Origin: Podarcis tiliguerta
Lineage: Eukaryota
Assembly (NCBI GenBank): GCA_965153285.1
Contig: OZ229112.1
Strand: one strand, 5' to 3'
DNA length: 64,000 nucleotides
Part shown: in pieces, positions 1-6,000 of the stretch
How positions within the stretch are numbered: position 1 is the stretch's first letter
Layout of the letters: every line of letters starts with the position of its first letter
Program-made: the position numbers

Positions 1-3000
1 GAACACACTATAACTTTAGATCACATTGAAGCCCTTTAAATCACATTCTTTCCCTCAAAGAATTCTGGGTGCTGTAGTTTTTGCCTCACAGAGTTACAAT
101 TCCCAACAACCCTTAACAAACCTAAGTGCCCAAAATTATAGGAGGGGGGGAATTTGCTTCAACTGTGATTTAATGGTATAGTATTGTGGTTCGAGGACCC
201 GACCCCCGCCCCGTGGAAATGAACACACAAGGACACGTGATATATGGTTTATGGGCATGAAAAGGCCACAACTTTATTGGTTACAGCAGTGAAAAAGGTA
301 TTGGCTTAGGCATTGGATGTCCACCACAGGGGTTGAATCACCAGGGGGCGGAGCCTGTTGATGATAATACAACTATAGGCTCTCCCCTGACGTCACCAGG
401 GGTCGTGCCATGGCCTCCCGCCAAGCAGGCATCGGACGGAATACACGACCCCCAGATTCCTTTAACGGAATACCCAAAATTGAAGGCTTAGGCCGATGGC
501 CACACCTAGCCTTCCCACACACCATAACGCAATAATCCAATGCCTAACCTACCCACCAATACCACAAAAGTTGTGACGATTGCTACGAGGTAGGCGAAAA
601 AACCTCATGGCCTACTGCCATGCGGAAAAACTCCTACCAGGCCCCCCGACTAACCAGGGCGACCAACCTAAGGTCCATAGCAAGGCCAATACCCTAAGCT
701 AAAGGGAGTGGAGGGTGGGTGACTCTCGGCGAGACGGAGTGGAAAGAGGCTGAGGAGAGGGCTGGCGCTGCAATTTGAACTTGGCTGACCACACCCCCCA
801 GCGGCACCCGATTGGGTGCCGGTTGGTGGGAGGAGCGCCAGCCAGGGAACAGAAAGGCAGGGGGCTGAGCCCCCTGCTGTGGGCGGTGCTCAGGCTCCCG
901 TCCACAACCACTCCCCTCTCTTTCAGGGAGGAGAGTCTTTGTGGTTCGAGGACCCGACCCCCGCCCCGTGGAAATGAACACACAAGGACACGTGATATAT
1001 GGTTTATGGGCATGAAAAGGCCACAACTTTATTGGTTACAGCAGTGAAAAAGGTATTGGCTTAGGCATTGGATGTCCACCACAGGGGTTGAATCACCAGG
1101 GGGCGGAGCCTGTTGATGATAATACAACTATAGGCTCTCCCCTGACGTCACCAGGGGTCGTGCCATGGCCTCCCGCCAAGCAGGCATCGGACGGAATACA
1201 CGACCCCCAGATTCCTTTAACGGAATACCCAAAATTGAAGGCTTAGGCCGATGGCCACACCTAGCCTTCCCACACACCATAACGCAATAATCCAATGCCT
1301 AACCGCCACCCGAGCCAAAGGCTCGCCGCCAATACCCTCACAGCTGCAACCAATCCCTGACGCTACTGATGATGCTGTCAAGCCACAGGTCATTCCGCAG
1401 GTCTGAGAGATGAACCCCGTCATCTCTATCCATGTTGCCAATCCGAATACGATCATGCACAATAACTTGGCCATTCCGACAGCGCACCCAACGGGACACG
1501 GCCCGGTTCAAAGTCTTTCTGATTTTCTCCACGGCCATACAACACTTCGCCCCTCGCCACACAATTCTCTTCAGGAGGGAGGACCAAAACACGGTAGTCC
1601 CAGGACACAAGACAGCAATCTCGCCCAAATCAGTTCTTATACTCCATGACAAGTCCGCCGTACTCCTGGTAACGAGGTCATTCTCGCCTAGCTGGACAAT
1701 AAGGATGTCGGGGGGGCCGAACAAGGCCACTTTCTCCCGCAACATAGGCATAAGCTCCTGCCAACGCATGCCCCATTTCATGAACCAGAAACAGCGGACT
1801 CCCGGATGTAGGCCAAGATTAACAGTGAGGTCGGAACTACACGCCCTTGCACGGGCCCAATGGACGATACTGTGGCCGCAAATCCACACGATCTTTTTGG
1901 CAGCAGCTGAGGATGAAAAGAAGAAAGCGACAGGTAAGTGGGGGGGTTAATGTAATGTAATCTAGCGGATATAGGCTTTATATGCATCAGATTTCCACCG
2001 GCCCATCTCCTTAATCCTATCCACCGGCAAGCCCAAATGAGCGGCTGTTGTTGCAGCGCCGATCCGAAAGGAGTGCGCTGCGTAGTCTTGGGCAGGTAAC
2101 CCACAGGAATCCATGGCTCTGCGGAGCACCCTCGTGAATGAAGGCATTGAGGAAATGCGAAATGGGTTTGGGTTCATTATTATGACGGTCGCCAGCTGCA
2201 GTGTGTGCTGGTGCTGCACCCGTGCGCTTCCTCTTGGGCGCCATGAGCTGCTCTGTGCACTAGTAAAATGCACCTACTATTTATTTTGTCACCAATTACA
2301 TTNNNNNNNNNNNNNNNNNNNNNNNNNNNNNNNNNNNNNNNNNNNNNNNNNNNNNNNNNNNNNNNNNNNNNNNNNNNNNNNNNNNNNNNNNNNNNNNNNN
2401 NNNNNNNNNNNNNNNNNNNNNNNNNNNNNNNNNNNNNNNNNNNNNNNNNNNNNNNNNNNNNNNNNNNNNNNNNNNNNNNNNNNNNNNNNNNNNNNNNTTA
2501 TTATTTTATTTTATTATTGTTGTTGTTTTTAATTAGTATTAATATCACCAATCAATTAATAACTTGACTGTAAATAAATGTTAGTAAACAATTATTGGGC
2601 ATCAATAAAGTTCAGAGCACAGTTGATGAATTAACTATTAATCAATAGTATCTCAATTAATAGCCAATGGATTTATAGCTATGAGTAGGAATTACTATTA
2701 TCAATTGCTCCGCGTAAATGCTGACAAAATGAACAATAACCAGCAACCTTGGCATTATCAGCATTATGCTCCAACCAGTTGAGCTATCCAAGCTCTTAAG
2801 TTGCCCCTTTTAAATGATAGGCAAATCTAGGTGCAAAGCAATGCCAAGTAATCAAACAGAATTGAAAATAACTGCTTACAAGGAGATGCTCAGAAGCTGC
2901 AGCCAAAATAAGAGAAAAGGAAATCAATAAGATTCCACACCAGCGGCCCTGCTGGAGAAACTTTATCAAACAAAGGAAACTTTGCCAAACAAAGAAAAGT

Positions 3001-6000
3001 AAATCTTTGCCCACAAGGTCGGCTCAAGACCAGTTGAGGGAAATAAGGGTGATTAAACAGACAAAAGACTGTAATTGGTCAAACTGCTGGTTAGTTAAAC
3101 TGACAATGCAACTAGAGCTGCTGAACTGCCAGGTGCATAAAGACAATGCCTCCCAAAATGCTGGTCACTCAGAGAGCAATCAAGCCTGCCCCAGGAGTTG
3201 AAAAGCCTGTCTGGCAACTGTGATTACTCAGGCAAGAAGCAAAGGAAACTCCAAAGACCAATGTATCTCCTGAAAGGGGAGGGGTGGGGGGAGGGAGGAG
3301 GGGTGGAGGGCGGAGAAGGAAAGTGGGGGGGGGGGGGAGAGTTGGGAGGGAGGAGGGGTGGAGGCAAAATGAACATGCCGGGCAAGGAAAAATCTTTTGA
3401 AGAAAAGGAAAAATAGATGTCCTTACAGTGAGCCGAAATGAAGTGGAAATATAAACCTGGACTTTTCATTAAGGTACCATAAGCCGTAACCTTTGTTGTT
3501 GTTGTTGTTTAAAAGTGGTTTTCTTTAGGGAGCCTGTACTGGCAAGTGAAGCCAATGACAAGAACCAGGCAAAGGCACACCTTCAAAGGTTCTAAACGTA
3601 TAAACGTGCCGTGCTGAGGAATGGTTCCCTGATCAGAAACCCTGAATTGTCCACCCCAAGCCCTGCCTTATTTCTATCCTCCAAACATCAAGCGAAGGGG
3701 GGGGGGGTGGCTTAGAGAAACCAAGAGGGGTGAGGTTTAAGCGTACAGTCTTTCCCAAGCCCCGGCAGCCTTTAAAATTTACAGGGGGCTCCCGATTTAA
3801 GTGGTACCAATGGAAGGGATGGCAAGGTAAATTAAACCCACGCTAGAAGAGTAATAAATCAATAAACGGCAGGCACAAACACACGCTGCAAGCACACACA
3901 CACACACATACACAACTTAAAATTAGAAAGGAACAGGAAAAGGAACCCTGAGGATCATCTAGTCCAACCCAGGCAATGCAGAAATATTCAGCTGTCCCAT
4001 ACAGGGATCAAACTTGCAACCTTGCCATTATCAGCACCATGCAGTCACCCAGACCAGCCACGCAATTGGACAGGCAAGGGCAATAGAGGGGAAATGTACA
4101 AGCACCCTGACCAAAAATTAAAATAAAACGCACAGCTACCAAGCAGAGGCAGGGAAGACAAGCAAGGAGACAAGGGAGAAAGAAAGATGGAGCCACACTC
4201 ACACTCAGACCTCACCGGGGGCATGTGCTGGGCAGGGGAACAAGCTTAAGAAAGGTAATTCACACTTAGACCACACAAACAAATCAAGCACCAGAAGGGG
4301 GGGGGAATGGAAGGTTAAATGTAGGTTTTTACATGGGAAAAAGAGGACACAGCAAGGCAAACCTGGATTTTTAAAAGCAGTAAAGCAATGAGCGCACGCA
4401 AGCCTCCTAAAGTTAAAAGGCAAGCCTCCACACACACAGACCCCCCAACTCCAAACCTCGTGGCTCTTCCCTGTGATGACTGTGATGACTCCTAGCTGAT
4501 GACTCTCGGCGAGACGGAGTGGAAAGAGGCTGAGGAGAGGGCTGGCGCTGCAATTTGAACTTGGCTGACCACACCCCCCAGCGGCACCCGATTGGGTGCC
4601 GGTTGGTGGGAGGAGCGCCAGCCAGGGAACAGAAAGGCAGGGGGCTGAGCCCCCTGCTGTGGGCGGTGCTCAGGCTCCCGTCCACAACCACTCCCCTCTC
4701 TTTCAGGGAGGAGAGTCTTTGTAAACAGCCTATCAGGGCTGGCCCGCCCATGAGGCAAGGTGAGGCAACCACCGCAAGTGGCAGTGCCTGCCCTGCTGCC
4801 TCAAGAGAAGGGGTACTGGCAGCAGTGCTGGTCTCCGGTGAGATCTTGCCAGAAGGCAGCACCACTGCCAGTGTTCTGTGGGCGCTGCTGTACAGCACAG
4901 GTAAGGCAATTTTCAGCGAATGCAAGGGGATATGTGTCAGTTTGCATTTCTTAGTGCAGAAAGTATTGATCTGTACACTTGTTGATTTGCACAGATCAAC
5001 TACAGTGCACACAGGGACAACTGTAGACTTAGATAATAGAATCATAGAATTGGAAGGGACCATGAGGATTATCTAGGCCAACCTGCTGTAATGCAGGAAT
5101 CTTTTTGCCCAAAATGGGGCACGAACCGATGACCCTGAGATTCAGAGTCTCATGCTCTACCGACTGAGCTATCCCTTGAACATTACATGGAAATAAAAGT
5201 ATGAGTGTATAGCTCTGCTATTGTACACACAAATCGTGCATTCATTTTACATGATGCATGAACACTCCCTGTGTGAAACATTGCACCCGTGTTGATTTGC
5301 AAAGATGAGCTGCTGTGCACACAGGTACAATTGTATATTTGTTGACCATTACATGGGAATAACTGTATGAGCATACATCTCAGCTATTGTGCAAAAAAGG
5401 TACACAGATTGTGCACTTATGTTACATAATGTGTGAATACTCCTTGAATGAGCAAGCAATGAGAGGAAACATAATCCCTGCAGAATTTACCCTCTTTCTT
5501 TCTTTGTGATGGGGGGAAGCATGCAGATTGAGTCCACAGGAAGAGGCAAGGAAATGGGCAGTGGCAACAGCAACAAGAGCTACACCCAGAAAAGTGGCAT
5601 GCTGGCAGCAACTTGCCAAAGCCCCCCCCCCCCTCAAAAAAAGAACAAAACTGGAATTGGCACTTGCTATGAATGTCCTTTGCAAGGGTGATATGCCAAG
5701 AGAACAAAACGGGAGTGATGCATGGGAGCAAAGACATACATGGAGAAGAGGCAGGGATACAAAAAGACCAGGGTAGATTTGAGGGCAGTGATGCCTTCAG
5801 GGCAGGACTTAGGGGCAGGTATTTGGGGCCTCATTCAGAAGGATGCACAGGAGAGCCTACAAACACAGCAGTAACAGCAGTTACCTTGTGCAGTAAATAA
5901 AGCAACATTGTATTGTGTATTTATTATATTTATATATCACACTTTCTCCTGGAAGGAGCTCATGGATGTAACTGTGTTCACGGAAAACCCCTGATGGAGA

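What the first reader, a model, noticed from the sequence alone, without database searches (positions are those of the whole stretch)
184..4722. Young non-autonomous Ngaro retroelement that lost RT and recombinase but kept all cis repeats and an intact hydrolase
Seen: both repeat pairs are identical by eye, implying recent insertion. A basic MAPKRKR start is joined out of frame at ~2138 to only the last ~58 codons of the tyrosine recombinase, while the SGNH frame has no stops. The junction lies ~165 bp away from the N-gap, so the gap does not explain it. Known: Ngaro elements have A1..B1A2B2 repeats and gag/RT-RH/YR ORFs, and some carry a hydrolase ORF. Inference: this may belong to a non-autonomous family mobilised in trans whose only functional product is the esterase.
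[Added by the scan's program, not by the reader: the finding's places include an assembly gap (unread letters, written N; its length is only estimated) at 2303 to 2497. Whether the letters on both sides are continuous or in frame is not known: test that first.]
Basis: partly seen in the sequence, partly recalled or inferred. Interest (0 to 1): 0.7.

Follow-up and report, generated by a model that had tools for sequence, protein, structure and literature searches.

The report
Defective young Ngaro-like retroelement copy
This is a recently inserted but gutted copy of a lizard Ngaro-type retrotransposon that keeps its terminal repeats and an esterase reading frame; it is an ordinary kind of genomic relic, and nothing here shows that it still moves or makes the enzyme.

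Summary
Two repeat pairs are 100% identical: 366 bp (184-549 and 939-1304) and 223 bp (720-942 and 4500-4722). Read on the minus strand they form the Ngaro pattern A1...B1-A2-B2, with an extra 170-bp spacer. A short TTGT core sits at both outer ends and at the internal B1/A2 junction. Only about the last 58 codons of a tyrosine recombinase remain. A 75-codon ATG ORF lies upstream in another frame. A 202-codon SGNH-hydrolase frame is open and keeps all catalytic residues.

The interior 2498-4499, and the 58 bp on the other side of the gap, look like old host DNA: CpG-poor, AT-rich, with decayed SINE pieces. The hydrolase frame has no ATG before its nucleophile. The MAPKRKR start has no significant relative.

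No gag, RT or RNase H was found in the assembled letters.

Whether this deleted form is a family mobilised in trans could not be tested, because no eukaryotic genome could be searched. Verdict: a defective member of a known kind, of modest interest.

The parts
184..4722 (-). Whole assembled unit, read on the minus strand: A1, host-like interior, gap, coding remnant, B1, A2, spacer, B2
   Evidence: Repeat pairs and their order; coding parts lie on the minus strand
4500..4722 (-). 5' repeat (A1), 223 bp, GC 0.64
   Evidence: 223 of 223 bases identical to 720-942
2498..4499 (.). Host-like non-coding interior. GC 0.44, CpG observed/expected 0.25. Holds decayed SINE pieces (2738-2783, 3940-4042), microsatellites and a G-rich low-complexity run. 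No ORF above 81 codons.
   Evidence: no protein similarity better than E 0.094 to 235 fetched relatives
2303..2497 (.). Assembly gap (195 N, length only estimated); not filled or looked up
   Evidence: Only N run in the window. Its right edge opens in a (TTA)n array at 2498-2545. Its left edge, 2245-2302, has GC 0.36 and 0 CpG.
2017..2244 (-). 75-codon ATG ORF with a basic N-terminus. An in-frame stop lies a few codons upstream of the ATG. Origin unassigned.
   Evidence: 0 Pfam families. 0 of 88 candidates at E<=0.001 among longer proteins. Best E 0.4 against 235 fetched proteins.
1962..2273 (-). ORF whose C-terminal part is the tyrosine-recombinase remnant (about the last 58 of 270-347 codons). 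A broken gene, given here as one part.
   Evidence: Phage_integrase profile positions 109-160 of 172, E 0.061. 64 of 108 candidates at E<=0.001; the top six are P. muralis at 74-86% identity. Sequences of the relatives.
1341..1946 (-). SGNH/GDSL-type hydrolase open frame, 202 codons from stop to stop (stop codon at 1338-1340). No in-frame ATG before the nucleophile.
939..1304 (-). Internal 366-bp repeat (B1)
   Evidence: 366 of 366 bases identical to 184-549
720..942 (-). Internal 223-bp repeat (A2); overlaps B1 by the 4-base core at 939-942
550..719 (-). 170-bp unique spacer between A2 and B2, absent from the textbook scheme. Folds somewhat better than shuffles.
   Evidence: No other copy in the window. 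MFE -68.9 kcal/mol, z -2.86, 1 of 200 shuffles as good.
184..549 (-). 3' terminal 366-bp repeat (B2). Carries AATAAA on the sense strand at 273-278, about 90 bases before the element end.

Best explanation
The locus is a recently integrated, coding-defective copy of a Ngaro-type (tyrosine-recombinase, DIRS-order) retrotransposon in a squamate genome, lying on the minus strand.

Its 3' half is authentic element DNA: a short ATG ORF, the last ~58 codons of the recombinase, a complete SGNH-hydrolase domain frame, then B1-A2-spacer-B2. Its 5' repeat (A1) is present but is separated from that half by at least 2 kb of old, host-like DNA and an assembly gap. gag, RT/RNase H and about four fifths of the recombinase are absent.

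Shown here: the repeat architecture, the identities, the domain assignments, the compositional break, and the TTGT core at both ends and at the B1/A2 junction.

Inferred: the element family integrates from a circular DNA by recombinase-mediated crossover at that short core, so there is no target duplication beyond the core. On that reading this copy cannot supply any of its own replication proteins.

The hydrolase frame is open because the copy is young, not demonstrably because it is selected. As it stands it has no start codon of its own.

Whether the internal losses happened before insertion (a defective lineage) or at this locus is not decided by the evidence.
For: Repeats are 366/366 and 223/223 identical, in the order A1...B1 A2 (spacer) B2 on the coding strand.

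The literature describes Ngaro split direct repeats as A1 at the 5' end and B1, A2, B2 at the 3' end, with an SGNH ORF after the recombinase in amphibian elements; it also gives A 236 bp and B 152 bp, 100% identical, in DIRS-53_XT (PMC9210276, passages).

A 4-base core is shared by 184-187, 939-942 and 4719-4722. This matches the model in which a short junction sequence ends up at either end of a DIRS integration (PMC7192593 and PMC3266345, passages).

The recombinase remnant is 74-86% identical to P. muralis models, which in the same proteins carry RVT_1 (P0037) or Lipase_GDSL_2 (P0035).

The hydrolase found 31 of 246 candidates at E<=0.001, with 17 of the 19 named hits from lacertid lizards and the best at 71% identity. 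1330 representatives reached E<=0.001. A profile of 45 relatives hits the LINE ORF1p esterase 4c1b at E 1.2e-11. The window keeps 36 of 37 columns that are >=80% conserved.

CpG observed/expected is 0.65 for 184-2302, 0.25 for 2498-4499, 0.21 for the right flank, and a median of 0.21 over 57 background bins.

No similarity to RT- or recombinase-bearing relatives appears anywhere else in the window: 257 HSPs at E<=0.001 all fall within 1170-2252, and 0 of 849 weaker HSPs beyond 4722 reach E<=0.01.
Against: - The 170-bp spacer between A2 and B2 is not in the textbook scheme.
- The 2-kb host-like interior has no precedent that I found for Ngaro.
- The gap's true length is unknown, so coding sequence inside it cannot be excluded from the letters alone.
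- Only two of the fetched relatives (P0037, P0074) carry RT sequence and none carries a recognised gag, so the absence of gag/RT rests on few queries plus the lack of any ORF above 81 codons in 2498-4499.
- Pfam scores for both domains are below the curated cut-offs on the single sequence (15.3 against 32.9 bits; 13.5 against 27.1 bits).
- The single sequence finds no solved structure.
- Repeat identity dates an insertion securely only for LTR-type replication. For split direct repeats the extent of homogenisation at each cycle is not established.
Confidence: 0.62

Rival explanations
1. The deleted form, host-like interior included, is itself a non-autonomous family that is copied and integrated by proteins of full-length relatives, and the esterase is its one working product.
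For: All cis repeats and the core signature are intact, and both outer ends look like genuine recombination junctions.

The copy is young yet has at least two large internal changes, which is easier to explain if they were inherited.

There is a precedent for a truncated non-autonomous derivative of a recombinase retroelement: SIRE from VIPER, which corresponds to the A2-B2 region (PMC6681497, passages).

The hydrolase retains every catalytic position.
Against: - One copy in 64 kb, and the source genome could not be searched, so there is no evidence of a second locus.
- The hydrolase frame has no ATG before the nucleophile.
- The frame carries one departure at a column conserved in 98% of 45 relatives and one 2-codon in-frame deletion.
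- An open frame in a copy with 0 of 589 repeat differences is expected without selection.
Confidence: 0.2
2. Scaffold or assembly artefact. Contig 1-2302 ends inside a repeated element, and the join to contig 2498-64000, which carries an identical 223-bp repeat, is wrong or hides an unknown length. On this view the 'element' 184-4722 is not one physical unit, or the internal join near the contig end is chimeric.
For: The gap separates the coding remnant from A1. Repeats that are 100% identical invite false links. The internal join lies within a couple of hundred bases of a contig end.
Against: Both gap edges are alike in composition: AT-rich and CpG-poor (GC 0.36 and 0.29). This fits a gap inside one low-complexity host-like stretch. 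The orientation and order of A1 relative to the rest are exactly those expected of one element.
Confidence: 0.18
3. Two separate relics. One is a copy lacking its 5' part (184 to about 2244). The other is an independent fragment that retains A1 (4500-4722, perhaps with unrecognised 5' leader). Ordinary host DNA lies between them.
For: The interior has host composition and old SINE pieces, 80-87% identical to other copies in the window. The end of A1 is defined only by comparison with A2, so some element leader next to it would go unrecognised.
Against: The two 223-bp copies are identical, and their orientation and order fit a single unit. 4301-4499, next to A1, is CpG-poor like the host (0.26).
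Confidence: 0.1
4. The missing gag-RT-recombinase block was removed as RNA, so the copy descends from a spliced subgenomic transcript that normally serves to express the hydrolase.
For: Six relatives' gene models (P0003, P0004, P0009, P0110, P0035, P0036) join upstream recombinase sequence to the hydrolase 5-6 residues before its first conserved motif. The window has a pyrimidine run ending in AG at the equivalent place (read). Two of 95 non-recombinase relatives start with a similar basic MAP[KR] N-terminus.
Against: The N-terminal likeness is weak: 7 of 13 residues at E 0.11 for one pair, and nothing for the other pairs. The join here is out of frame and retains recombinase codons that those models skip.
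Confidence: 0.07

Closest known systems
Ngaro-like elements of Xenopus tropicalis (Repbase DIRS-53_XT / DIRS-54_XT), as described in PMC9210276
   Same: Split direct repeats with A1 at the 5' end and B1, A2, B2 at the 3' end, the pairs 100% identical. A-repeat size is similar (236 bp there, 223 bp here). An SGNH hydrolase ORF follows the recombinase.
   Different: Those have four overlapping ORFs (gag-like, RT/RH, YR, SGNH). Here gag and RT/RH are absent and the recombinase is a stump. B is 366 bp rather than 152 bp, a 170-bp spacer separates A2 from B2, and the hydrolase frame does not overlap the recombinase frame and has no ATG. The host is a squamate, not an amphibian.
Podarcis muralis gene models P0032-P0037, named by NCBI 'integrase/recombinase xerD homolog' or 'uncharacterized protein'
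   Same: These are the closest sequences. The recombinase tail is 74-86% identical and the hydrolase 62-71% identical. The order is the same, recombinase then hydrolase, and an RT lies upstream in P0037.
   Different: Those models carry 270-350 recombinase residues. They are predicted proteins, with no repeat or genomic context available to me.
SIRE, the short non-autonomous derivative of VIPER in Trypanosoma cruzi (PMC6681497)
   Same: It is a truncated derivative of a recombinase retroelement built from its split-direct-repeat region. Whether it moves in trans or is only a remnant is likewise an open question.
   Different: SIRE is about 0.4 kb with no coding sequence and is highly repeated. 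Here a hydrolase frame and 2 kb of host-like DNA are retained, and the copy number is unknown.
Esterase domain of zebrafish ZfL2-1 LINE ORF1p (PDB 4c1b; PMC3905857)
   Same: It is the best solved-structure match of the hydrolase family profile (E 1.2e-11, profile positions 14-195). It has the same Ser/Asp/His triad and Gly/Asn oxyanion positions. It is a retrotransposon-borne SGNH esterase that is active and binds acidic phospholipids.
   Different: It belongs to ORF1 of a non-LTR element, behind a coiled coil, not downstream of a tyrosine recombinase. The single window sequence does not reach it by itself.
DIRS-1 and DIRS1-like elements
   Same: Recombinase-mediated integration at a short junction sequence that ends up at both ends, without a target-site duplication.
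   Different: DIRS-1 has inverted terminal repeats, an internal complementary region and a methyltransferase domain. None of these is seen here (0 inverted pairs of 30 bases or more in 1-6000).

Membership tests
Ngaro-type YR retrotransposon (DIRS order) | Split direct repeats: A1 at the 5' end and B1-A2-B2 at the 3' end, with A1=A2 and B1=B2 | tested here: met
   223/223 and 366/366 identical, in the right order on the coding strand. A 170-bp unique spacer between A2 and B2 departs from the scheme in PMC9210276.
Ngaro-type YR retrotransposon (DIRS order) | Encodes reverse transcriptase/RNase H | tested here: not met
   No RT similarity anywhere in 184-4722. Queries with RT sequence were few (P0037, P0074), and the gap is unread. 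The relatives do carry RVT_1. This copy is therefore a derivative, not an autonomous member.
Ngaro-type YR retrotransposon (DIRS order) | Encodes a tyrosine recombinase | tested here: inconclusive
   Only about the last 58 of 270-347 codons remain. The retained part holds the H-x-x-R and terminal Tyr region. The upstream Arg and Lys regions seen in the relatives are absent (the catalytic set is recalled from general knowledge of tyrosine recombinases).
Ngaro-type YR retrotransposon (DIRS order) | No methyltransferase domain; in some lineages a hydrolase ORF follows the recombinase | tested here: met
   A hydrolase frame lies directly downstream of the recombinase stop. Pfam found no other domain in the ORFs tested.
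Ngaro-type YR retrotransposon (DIRS order) | Integration without target-site duplication, at a short core shared with the circle junction | tested here: met
   TTGT at both outer ends and once at the B1/A2 junction, with no further flank duplication. The chance of a 4-base extension is about 1 in 256. TTGT/ACAA is common (749 occurrences in 64 kb), so target choice is not informative.
Ngaro-type YR retrotransposon (DIRS order) | RT or recombinase phylogeny places it in the Ngaro clade | not tested
   No named Ngaro reference proteins could be fetched. Placement rests on architecture and on relatives that have RT + YR + SGNH.
SGNH/GDSL hydrolase | Conserved blocks carrying the Ser nucleophile, the Gly and Asn of the oxyanion hole, and Asp-x-x-His | tested here: met
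   All are present in the window's frame and invariant or nearly invariant across 45 relatives. They align to the same blocks of 4c1b, whose catalytic residues are given in PMC3905857.
SGNH/GDSL hydrolase | Pfam Lipase_GDSL_2 at or above the gathering score | tested here: not met
   15.3 bits against a cut-off of 32.9. The relatives also score below it (23.7-27.9 bits). The family profile nevertheless reaches solved SGNH structures (15 sequences at E<=0.01).
SGNH/GDSL hydrolase | SGNH fold | not testable with these tools
   Structure prediction accepted no jobs, so no model or fold search was made.
Non-autonomous transposable-element family | Several loci with different flanks that share the same internal deletion joins | not testable with these tools
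   One copy in the window. The protein collection holds no protein above 71% identity to the window's hydrolase.

The most novel reading that the evidence does not exclude
A Ngaro derivative has replaced gag-RT-recombinase with about 2 kb of captured host DNA. It still spreads on the proteins of full-length relatives, and it keeps the esterase because that enzyme benefits the RNA that encodes it. The esterase would be expressed through a splice from a short basic leader to an acceptor that relatives share. This would be the first non-autonomous recombinase retroelement that retains an accessory enzyme.
Probability: 0.08. Interest if true: 0.55.

Novelty: new member of a known kind. Interest (0 to 1): 0.25.

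Why it matters
As it stands, little: defective copies of active retroelement families are common, and Ngaro elements with an SGNH ORF are already described.

Three points have modest value.
- The locus shows the split-direct-repeat architecture and a 4-base junction core very cleanly in a squamate. The paper I could read mentions the hydrolase ORF for amphibians only (PMC9210276).
- The retroelement hydrolase family is large (1330 representatives at E<=0.001). It occurs behind recombinases, in ORF1p-like proteins, and fused to cold-shock domains. Its role in retrotransposition is still unknown.
- If other loci share this copy's internal joins, it would be a useful natural case for asking whether the esterase matters in cis.

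Tried and rejected
- The MAPKRKR ORF as the start of a known protein. The best E was 0.4 against 235 fetched relatives. The pairwise match to P0098 was 7 of 13 residues at E 0.11, and there was nothing with P0099. 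I rejected it as evidence and kept it as a lead.
- The idea that the basic N-terminal regions of hydrolase-only relatives are the same as those in front of recombinases. P0099 against P0110 and P0098 against P0035 are alike only in the hydrolase domain.
- The spacer 550-719 as an extension of either repeat, or as a copy of sequence next to A1 or B1. Only chance 10-11-mers were found.
- The interior 2498-4499 as a local duplication or as hidden coding sequence. Only SINE pieces match elsewhere in the window, and no protein similarity was found.
- The RT-like ORF at 20468-21079 as the missing Ngaro RT. No similarity to the RT-bearing relatives at E<=0.01.
- Known RNA families. Only a tRNA-like SINE head in the flank, plus a sub-threshold RAGATH-18 hit at E 0.41.
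- Structure prediction, the protein Atlas and the cluster look-up for names of relatives were not available.
- The Goodwin and Poulter 2004 paper is not held, so what I say of it comes from other papers' passages.
- Supplementary tables of PMC9210276 (ORF coordinates and overlaps) were closed. They may bear on how the hydrolase ORF normally starts.
- dN/dS was not possible, because no DNA of relatives was available.
That joined step was left out.

Full report
THE GAP FIRST. The window has one N run, 2303-2497 (195 letters). I did not fill it or look it up.

On the minus strand, which carries the genes, the ATG ORF 2017-2244 has an in-frame stop a few codons upstream of its ATG. The frame that holds the recombinase remnant (ORF 1962-2273) is also closed before the gap edge. 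The two plus-strand 'ORFs' that cross the gap consist of X only. So no recognisable reading frame depends on continuity across the gap.

The two gap edges resemble each other and not the element. 2245-2302 has GC 0.36 and 0 CpG, and 2498-2800 has GC 0.29. The right edge opens in a (TTA)n array at 2498-2545. This fits a gap inside a low-complexity, host-like stretch. It does not prove the scaffold join, and the gap's true length is unknown.

THE OBSERVATION. The repeats are real and perfect. 184-549 matches 939-1304 at 366 of 366 bases, and 720-942 matches 4500-4722 at 223 of 223. No other copy of any part of 1-5000 occurs in the 64 kb, except two SINE pieces.

The coding remnants lie on the minus strand, so the element reads from 4722 down to 184:
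- A1 (4722-4500)
- interior (4499-2498)
- gap
- ATG ORF and recombinase remnant
- hydrolase frame (1946-1341)
- B1 (1304-939)
- A2 (942-720)
- 170-bp spacer (719-550)
- B2 (549-184)

This is the Ngaro split-direct-repeat order: A1 at the 5' end and B1, A2, B2 at the 3' end, with the pairs identical (PMC9210276, passages; PMC6681497, passages). The spacer is the exception.

B1 and A2 overlap by four bases, TTGT on the plus strand. The same four bases form both outer ends, and the flanks show no other duplication. This is what the DIRS integration model predicts: a short sequence at the circle junction recombines with an identical target sequence, leaving one copy at each end (PMC3266345 and PMC7192593, passages). 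A chance 4-base extension has odds of about 1 in 256.

THE CODING REMNANTS.

Recombinase. The C-terminal part of ORF 1962-2273 matches tyrosine recombinases. Pfam Phage_integrase scores E 0.061, below its cut-off, over profile positions 109-160 of 172. In the protein search, 64 of 108 longer candidates reach E<=0.001. The top six are Podarcis muralis models at 74-86% identity.

The match covers the last 57-58 residues of proteins that are 270-347 residues long. A few alignments extend some codons further at lower identity. So about one fifth of the gene remains. In count terms there is one large loss of the N-terminal part. The retained codons contain no stop. The sequence upstream continues in a different frame.

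The retained piece has the H-x-x-R and terminal tyrosine region. The arginine and lysine regions that relatives carry further upstream are gone, so it cannot be a working recombinase (the catalytic set is recalled general knowledge).

ATG ORF. I could not assign it to anything:
- 0 Pfam families.
- 0 of 88 candidates at E<=0.001 among proteins of 133-2000 residues.
- Best E 0.4 against 235 fetched relatives.

One lead remains. Among 173 fetched proteins with the hydrolase domain, 110 have at least 60 residues upstream of it. Of those, 95 show no recombinase match, and 2 of the 95 start with MAP followed by K or R. One of these aligns to the window's N-terminus over 13 residues, 7 identical, E 0.11 for the single pair. 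That is too weak to call. So 'gag start' is unverified. The ORF could equally be the leader of a hydrolase-bearing or recombinase-bearing ORF.

Hydrolase. The frame 1341-1946 is open for 202 codons from stop to stop.
- 31 of 246 near-length candidates reach E<=0.001. Of the 19 named hits, 17 are lacertid lizards and 2 are Phrynocephalus. The best is 71% identical.
- An exhaustive search finds 1330 representatives at E<=0.001, 663 at 1e-10 and 29 at 1e-30.
- Pfam Lipase_GDSL_2 is below its cut-off on the single sequence (15.3 against 32.9 bits), and the single sequence finds no solved structure.
- A profile of 45 relatives finds 15 solved SGNH proteins at E<=0.01. The best is 4c1b at 1.2e-11. 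This is the esterase of the zebrafish ZfL2-1 LINE ORF1 protein, which is active and binds acidic phospholipids (PMC3905857, passages).

The nucleophile serine, the oxyanion glycine and asparagine, and the Asp-x-x-His block are all present. The window keeps 36 of 37 columns that are at least 80% conserved; the other 44 sequences depart at a median of 3, range 0-8. Its single departure is at a column conserved in 98%. It also lacks two columns that at least 90% of relatives occupy, which is one in-frame 2-codon deletion. It has no stops and no frameshifts.

'Intact' needs two qualifications.
- There is no in-frame ATG before the nucleophile. The first Met is residue 56 and the nucleophile motif starts at residue 24. 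The frame is closed shortly upstream by stops that separate it from the recombinase frame.
- A copy whose repeats show 0 differences in 589 positions has had no time to decay, so an open frame is not evidence of selection.

How relatives express the domain is unclear. In six gene models, recombinase sequence is joined to the hydrolase 5-6 residues before its first conserved motif. The window has a pyrimidine run ending in AG at the equivalent place. I treated this as a lead only.

The interior 2498-4499 is not element-like.
- Its GC is 0.44 (window 0.43), and its CpG observed/expected is 0.25. The flank 4723-10000 is 0.21, and the median of 57 background 2-kb bins is 0.21. The stretch 184-2302 is 0.65, with 0.75 in the hydrolase frame.
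- It holds two decayed SINE pieces (2738-2783 and 3940-4042), 87% identical to a copy at 46304-46421. The second piece also matches copies at 39392-39445 and 16730-16779 at 78-80% identity.
- It holds microsatellites and a G-rich run.
- It has no ORF above 81 codons and no protein similarity better than E 0.094.

The 58 bases on the other side of the gap share this composition. The CpG-rich, young-looking DNA therefore ends near the ATG of the short ORF. A1 is separated from it by at least 2 kb of old host-like DNA.

No gag, RT or RNase H is detectable anywhere in the window with the fetched relatives. 257 HSPs at E<=0.001 from 235 queries all fall within 1170-2252. Beyond 4722, 0 of 849 HSPs at E<=10 reach E<=0.01. 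Only two queries carried RT sequence, so this negative is modest.

HOW IT MOST LIKELY WORKS. Shown: the repeat architecture, the junction core, the domain identities and the compositional break.

Inferred from the family model: full-length relatives are transcribed from A1 towards B2. B2 carries AATAAA on the sense strand about 90 bases before the element end. This would leave the RNA short of the terminus, and B1-A2 would then serve as the template that restores it. The cDNA is closed into a circle and integrated by the recombinase at the short core.

This copy has the cis parts for that cycle but none of the proteins. Either it arrived already defective, or it was damaged here, or the assembly misrepresents it. 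I put about 0.6 on the general reading, a genuine young defective Ngaro-type copy of undecided origin of defects.

AGE. With 0 differences in 589 compared positions, the 95% upper bound on divergence is about 0.5%. At a rate of roughly 1e-9 per site per year this means less than about 2.5 million years. The rate is recalled and approximate. The estimate also assumes the repeats were identical at insertion and that no gene conversion has occurred. For split direct repeats, how much of each repeat is homogenised per cycle is not established, so the bound is soft. The high CpG content points the same way independently.

COMPARISON AND NOVELTY. The closest described system is the Xenopus Ngaro-like family with gag-like, RT/RH, YR and SGNH ORFs. 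The closest sequences are lacertid gene models. The closest precedent for a non-autonomous derivative is SIRE from VIPER.

My literature searches were: Ngaro with hydrolase (38 papers); Ngaro with SGNH (2 papers, 1 listed; the listed record is a preprint also held under a PMC id); Ngaro with non-autonomous and tyrosine recombinase (10 papers); and Ngaro with lizard (15 papers). In the listings and the passages I read, none described a squamate Ngaro hydrolase or a hydrolase-retaining defective Ngaro family. That is a statement about this library only.

DIRS-order elements are reported absent from mammals (PMC4350176, passage), and the best hits are lizard proteins, so the window is not human.

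I file the locus as a defective new member of a known kind. As a copy it fails the RT criterion for an autonomous Ngaro element, while its architecture and relatives place it in that family.

NOT CHECKED.
- The source genome. The only open genome collection holds bacteria and archaea.
- Metagenome contigs and viral contigs (closed).
- Supplementary tables of the papers (closed).
- Goodwin and Poulter 2004 (not held).

Noticed in passing
window 5107-5179 (-), within about 5040-5179: A tRNA-like sequence (ARAGORN tRNA-Gln ctg; Rfam tRNA 37.7 bits) sits inside what looks like a tRNA-derived SINE just right of the element.
   Followed up: partly
window 2738-2783, 3940-4042, 46304-46421, 39392-39445, 16730-16779: Pieces of one dispersed repeat (SINE-like), 78-87% identical to each other. 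Two of them lie inside the element's interior.
   Followed up: partly
window 20468-21079 (-): An ORF with a weak reverse-transcriptase C-terminal match (RVT_1 E 0.0027, below cut-off) and DUF2703 (E 1.1e-5). It is probably a remnant of another retroelement. It is not similar to the Ngaro relatives' RT.
   Followed up: partly
window 42151-42564 (-): An ORF matching the C-terminal part of ribosomal protein S6e (E 6.1e-13). It is either an exon of the host gene or a processed pseudogene.
   Followed up: no
window about 49000-52000: A CpG-island-like stretch: GC 0.594 in 50001-52000 and CpG observed/expected 0.75-0.78. It is the only background region that rivals the element. It has many overlapping ORFs without Pfam matches.
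   Followed up: no
window 550-719 (-): The unique spacer between A2 and B2 folds as RNA better than shuffles (-68.9 kcal/mol, z -2.86, 1 of 200 as good). No Rfam match. Function unknown.
   Followed up: partly
window 184-549 and 939-1304: Each 366-bp repeat carries a palindromic TGACGTCA (388, 1143), GC-box-like GGGCGG motifs, CCAAT motifs and a sense-strand AATAAA (273-278, 1028-1033). This is a promoter-plus-polyadenylation look, as in an LTR. These are motif matches only.
   Followed up: partly
relatives P0123, P0128, P0130, P0135: Long proteins (1300-2013 aa) combine cold-shock/CSDE1 domains with a C-terminal copy of this hydrolase domain. No names or species were available.
   Followed up: no
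relatives P0096, P0097, P0102, P0105, P0107, P0108: Proteins of 1309-3112 aa contain 3-7 tandem matches to the hydrolase domain, probably gene models run through arrays of element copies. No context was available.
   Followed up: no
window 3275-3364 and 2498-2545: A G-rich low-complexity run and a (TTA)n array. The latter forms the right edge of the assembly gap.
   Followed up: yes
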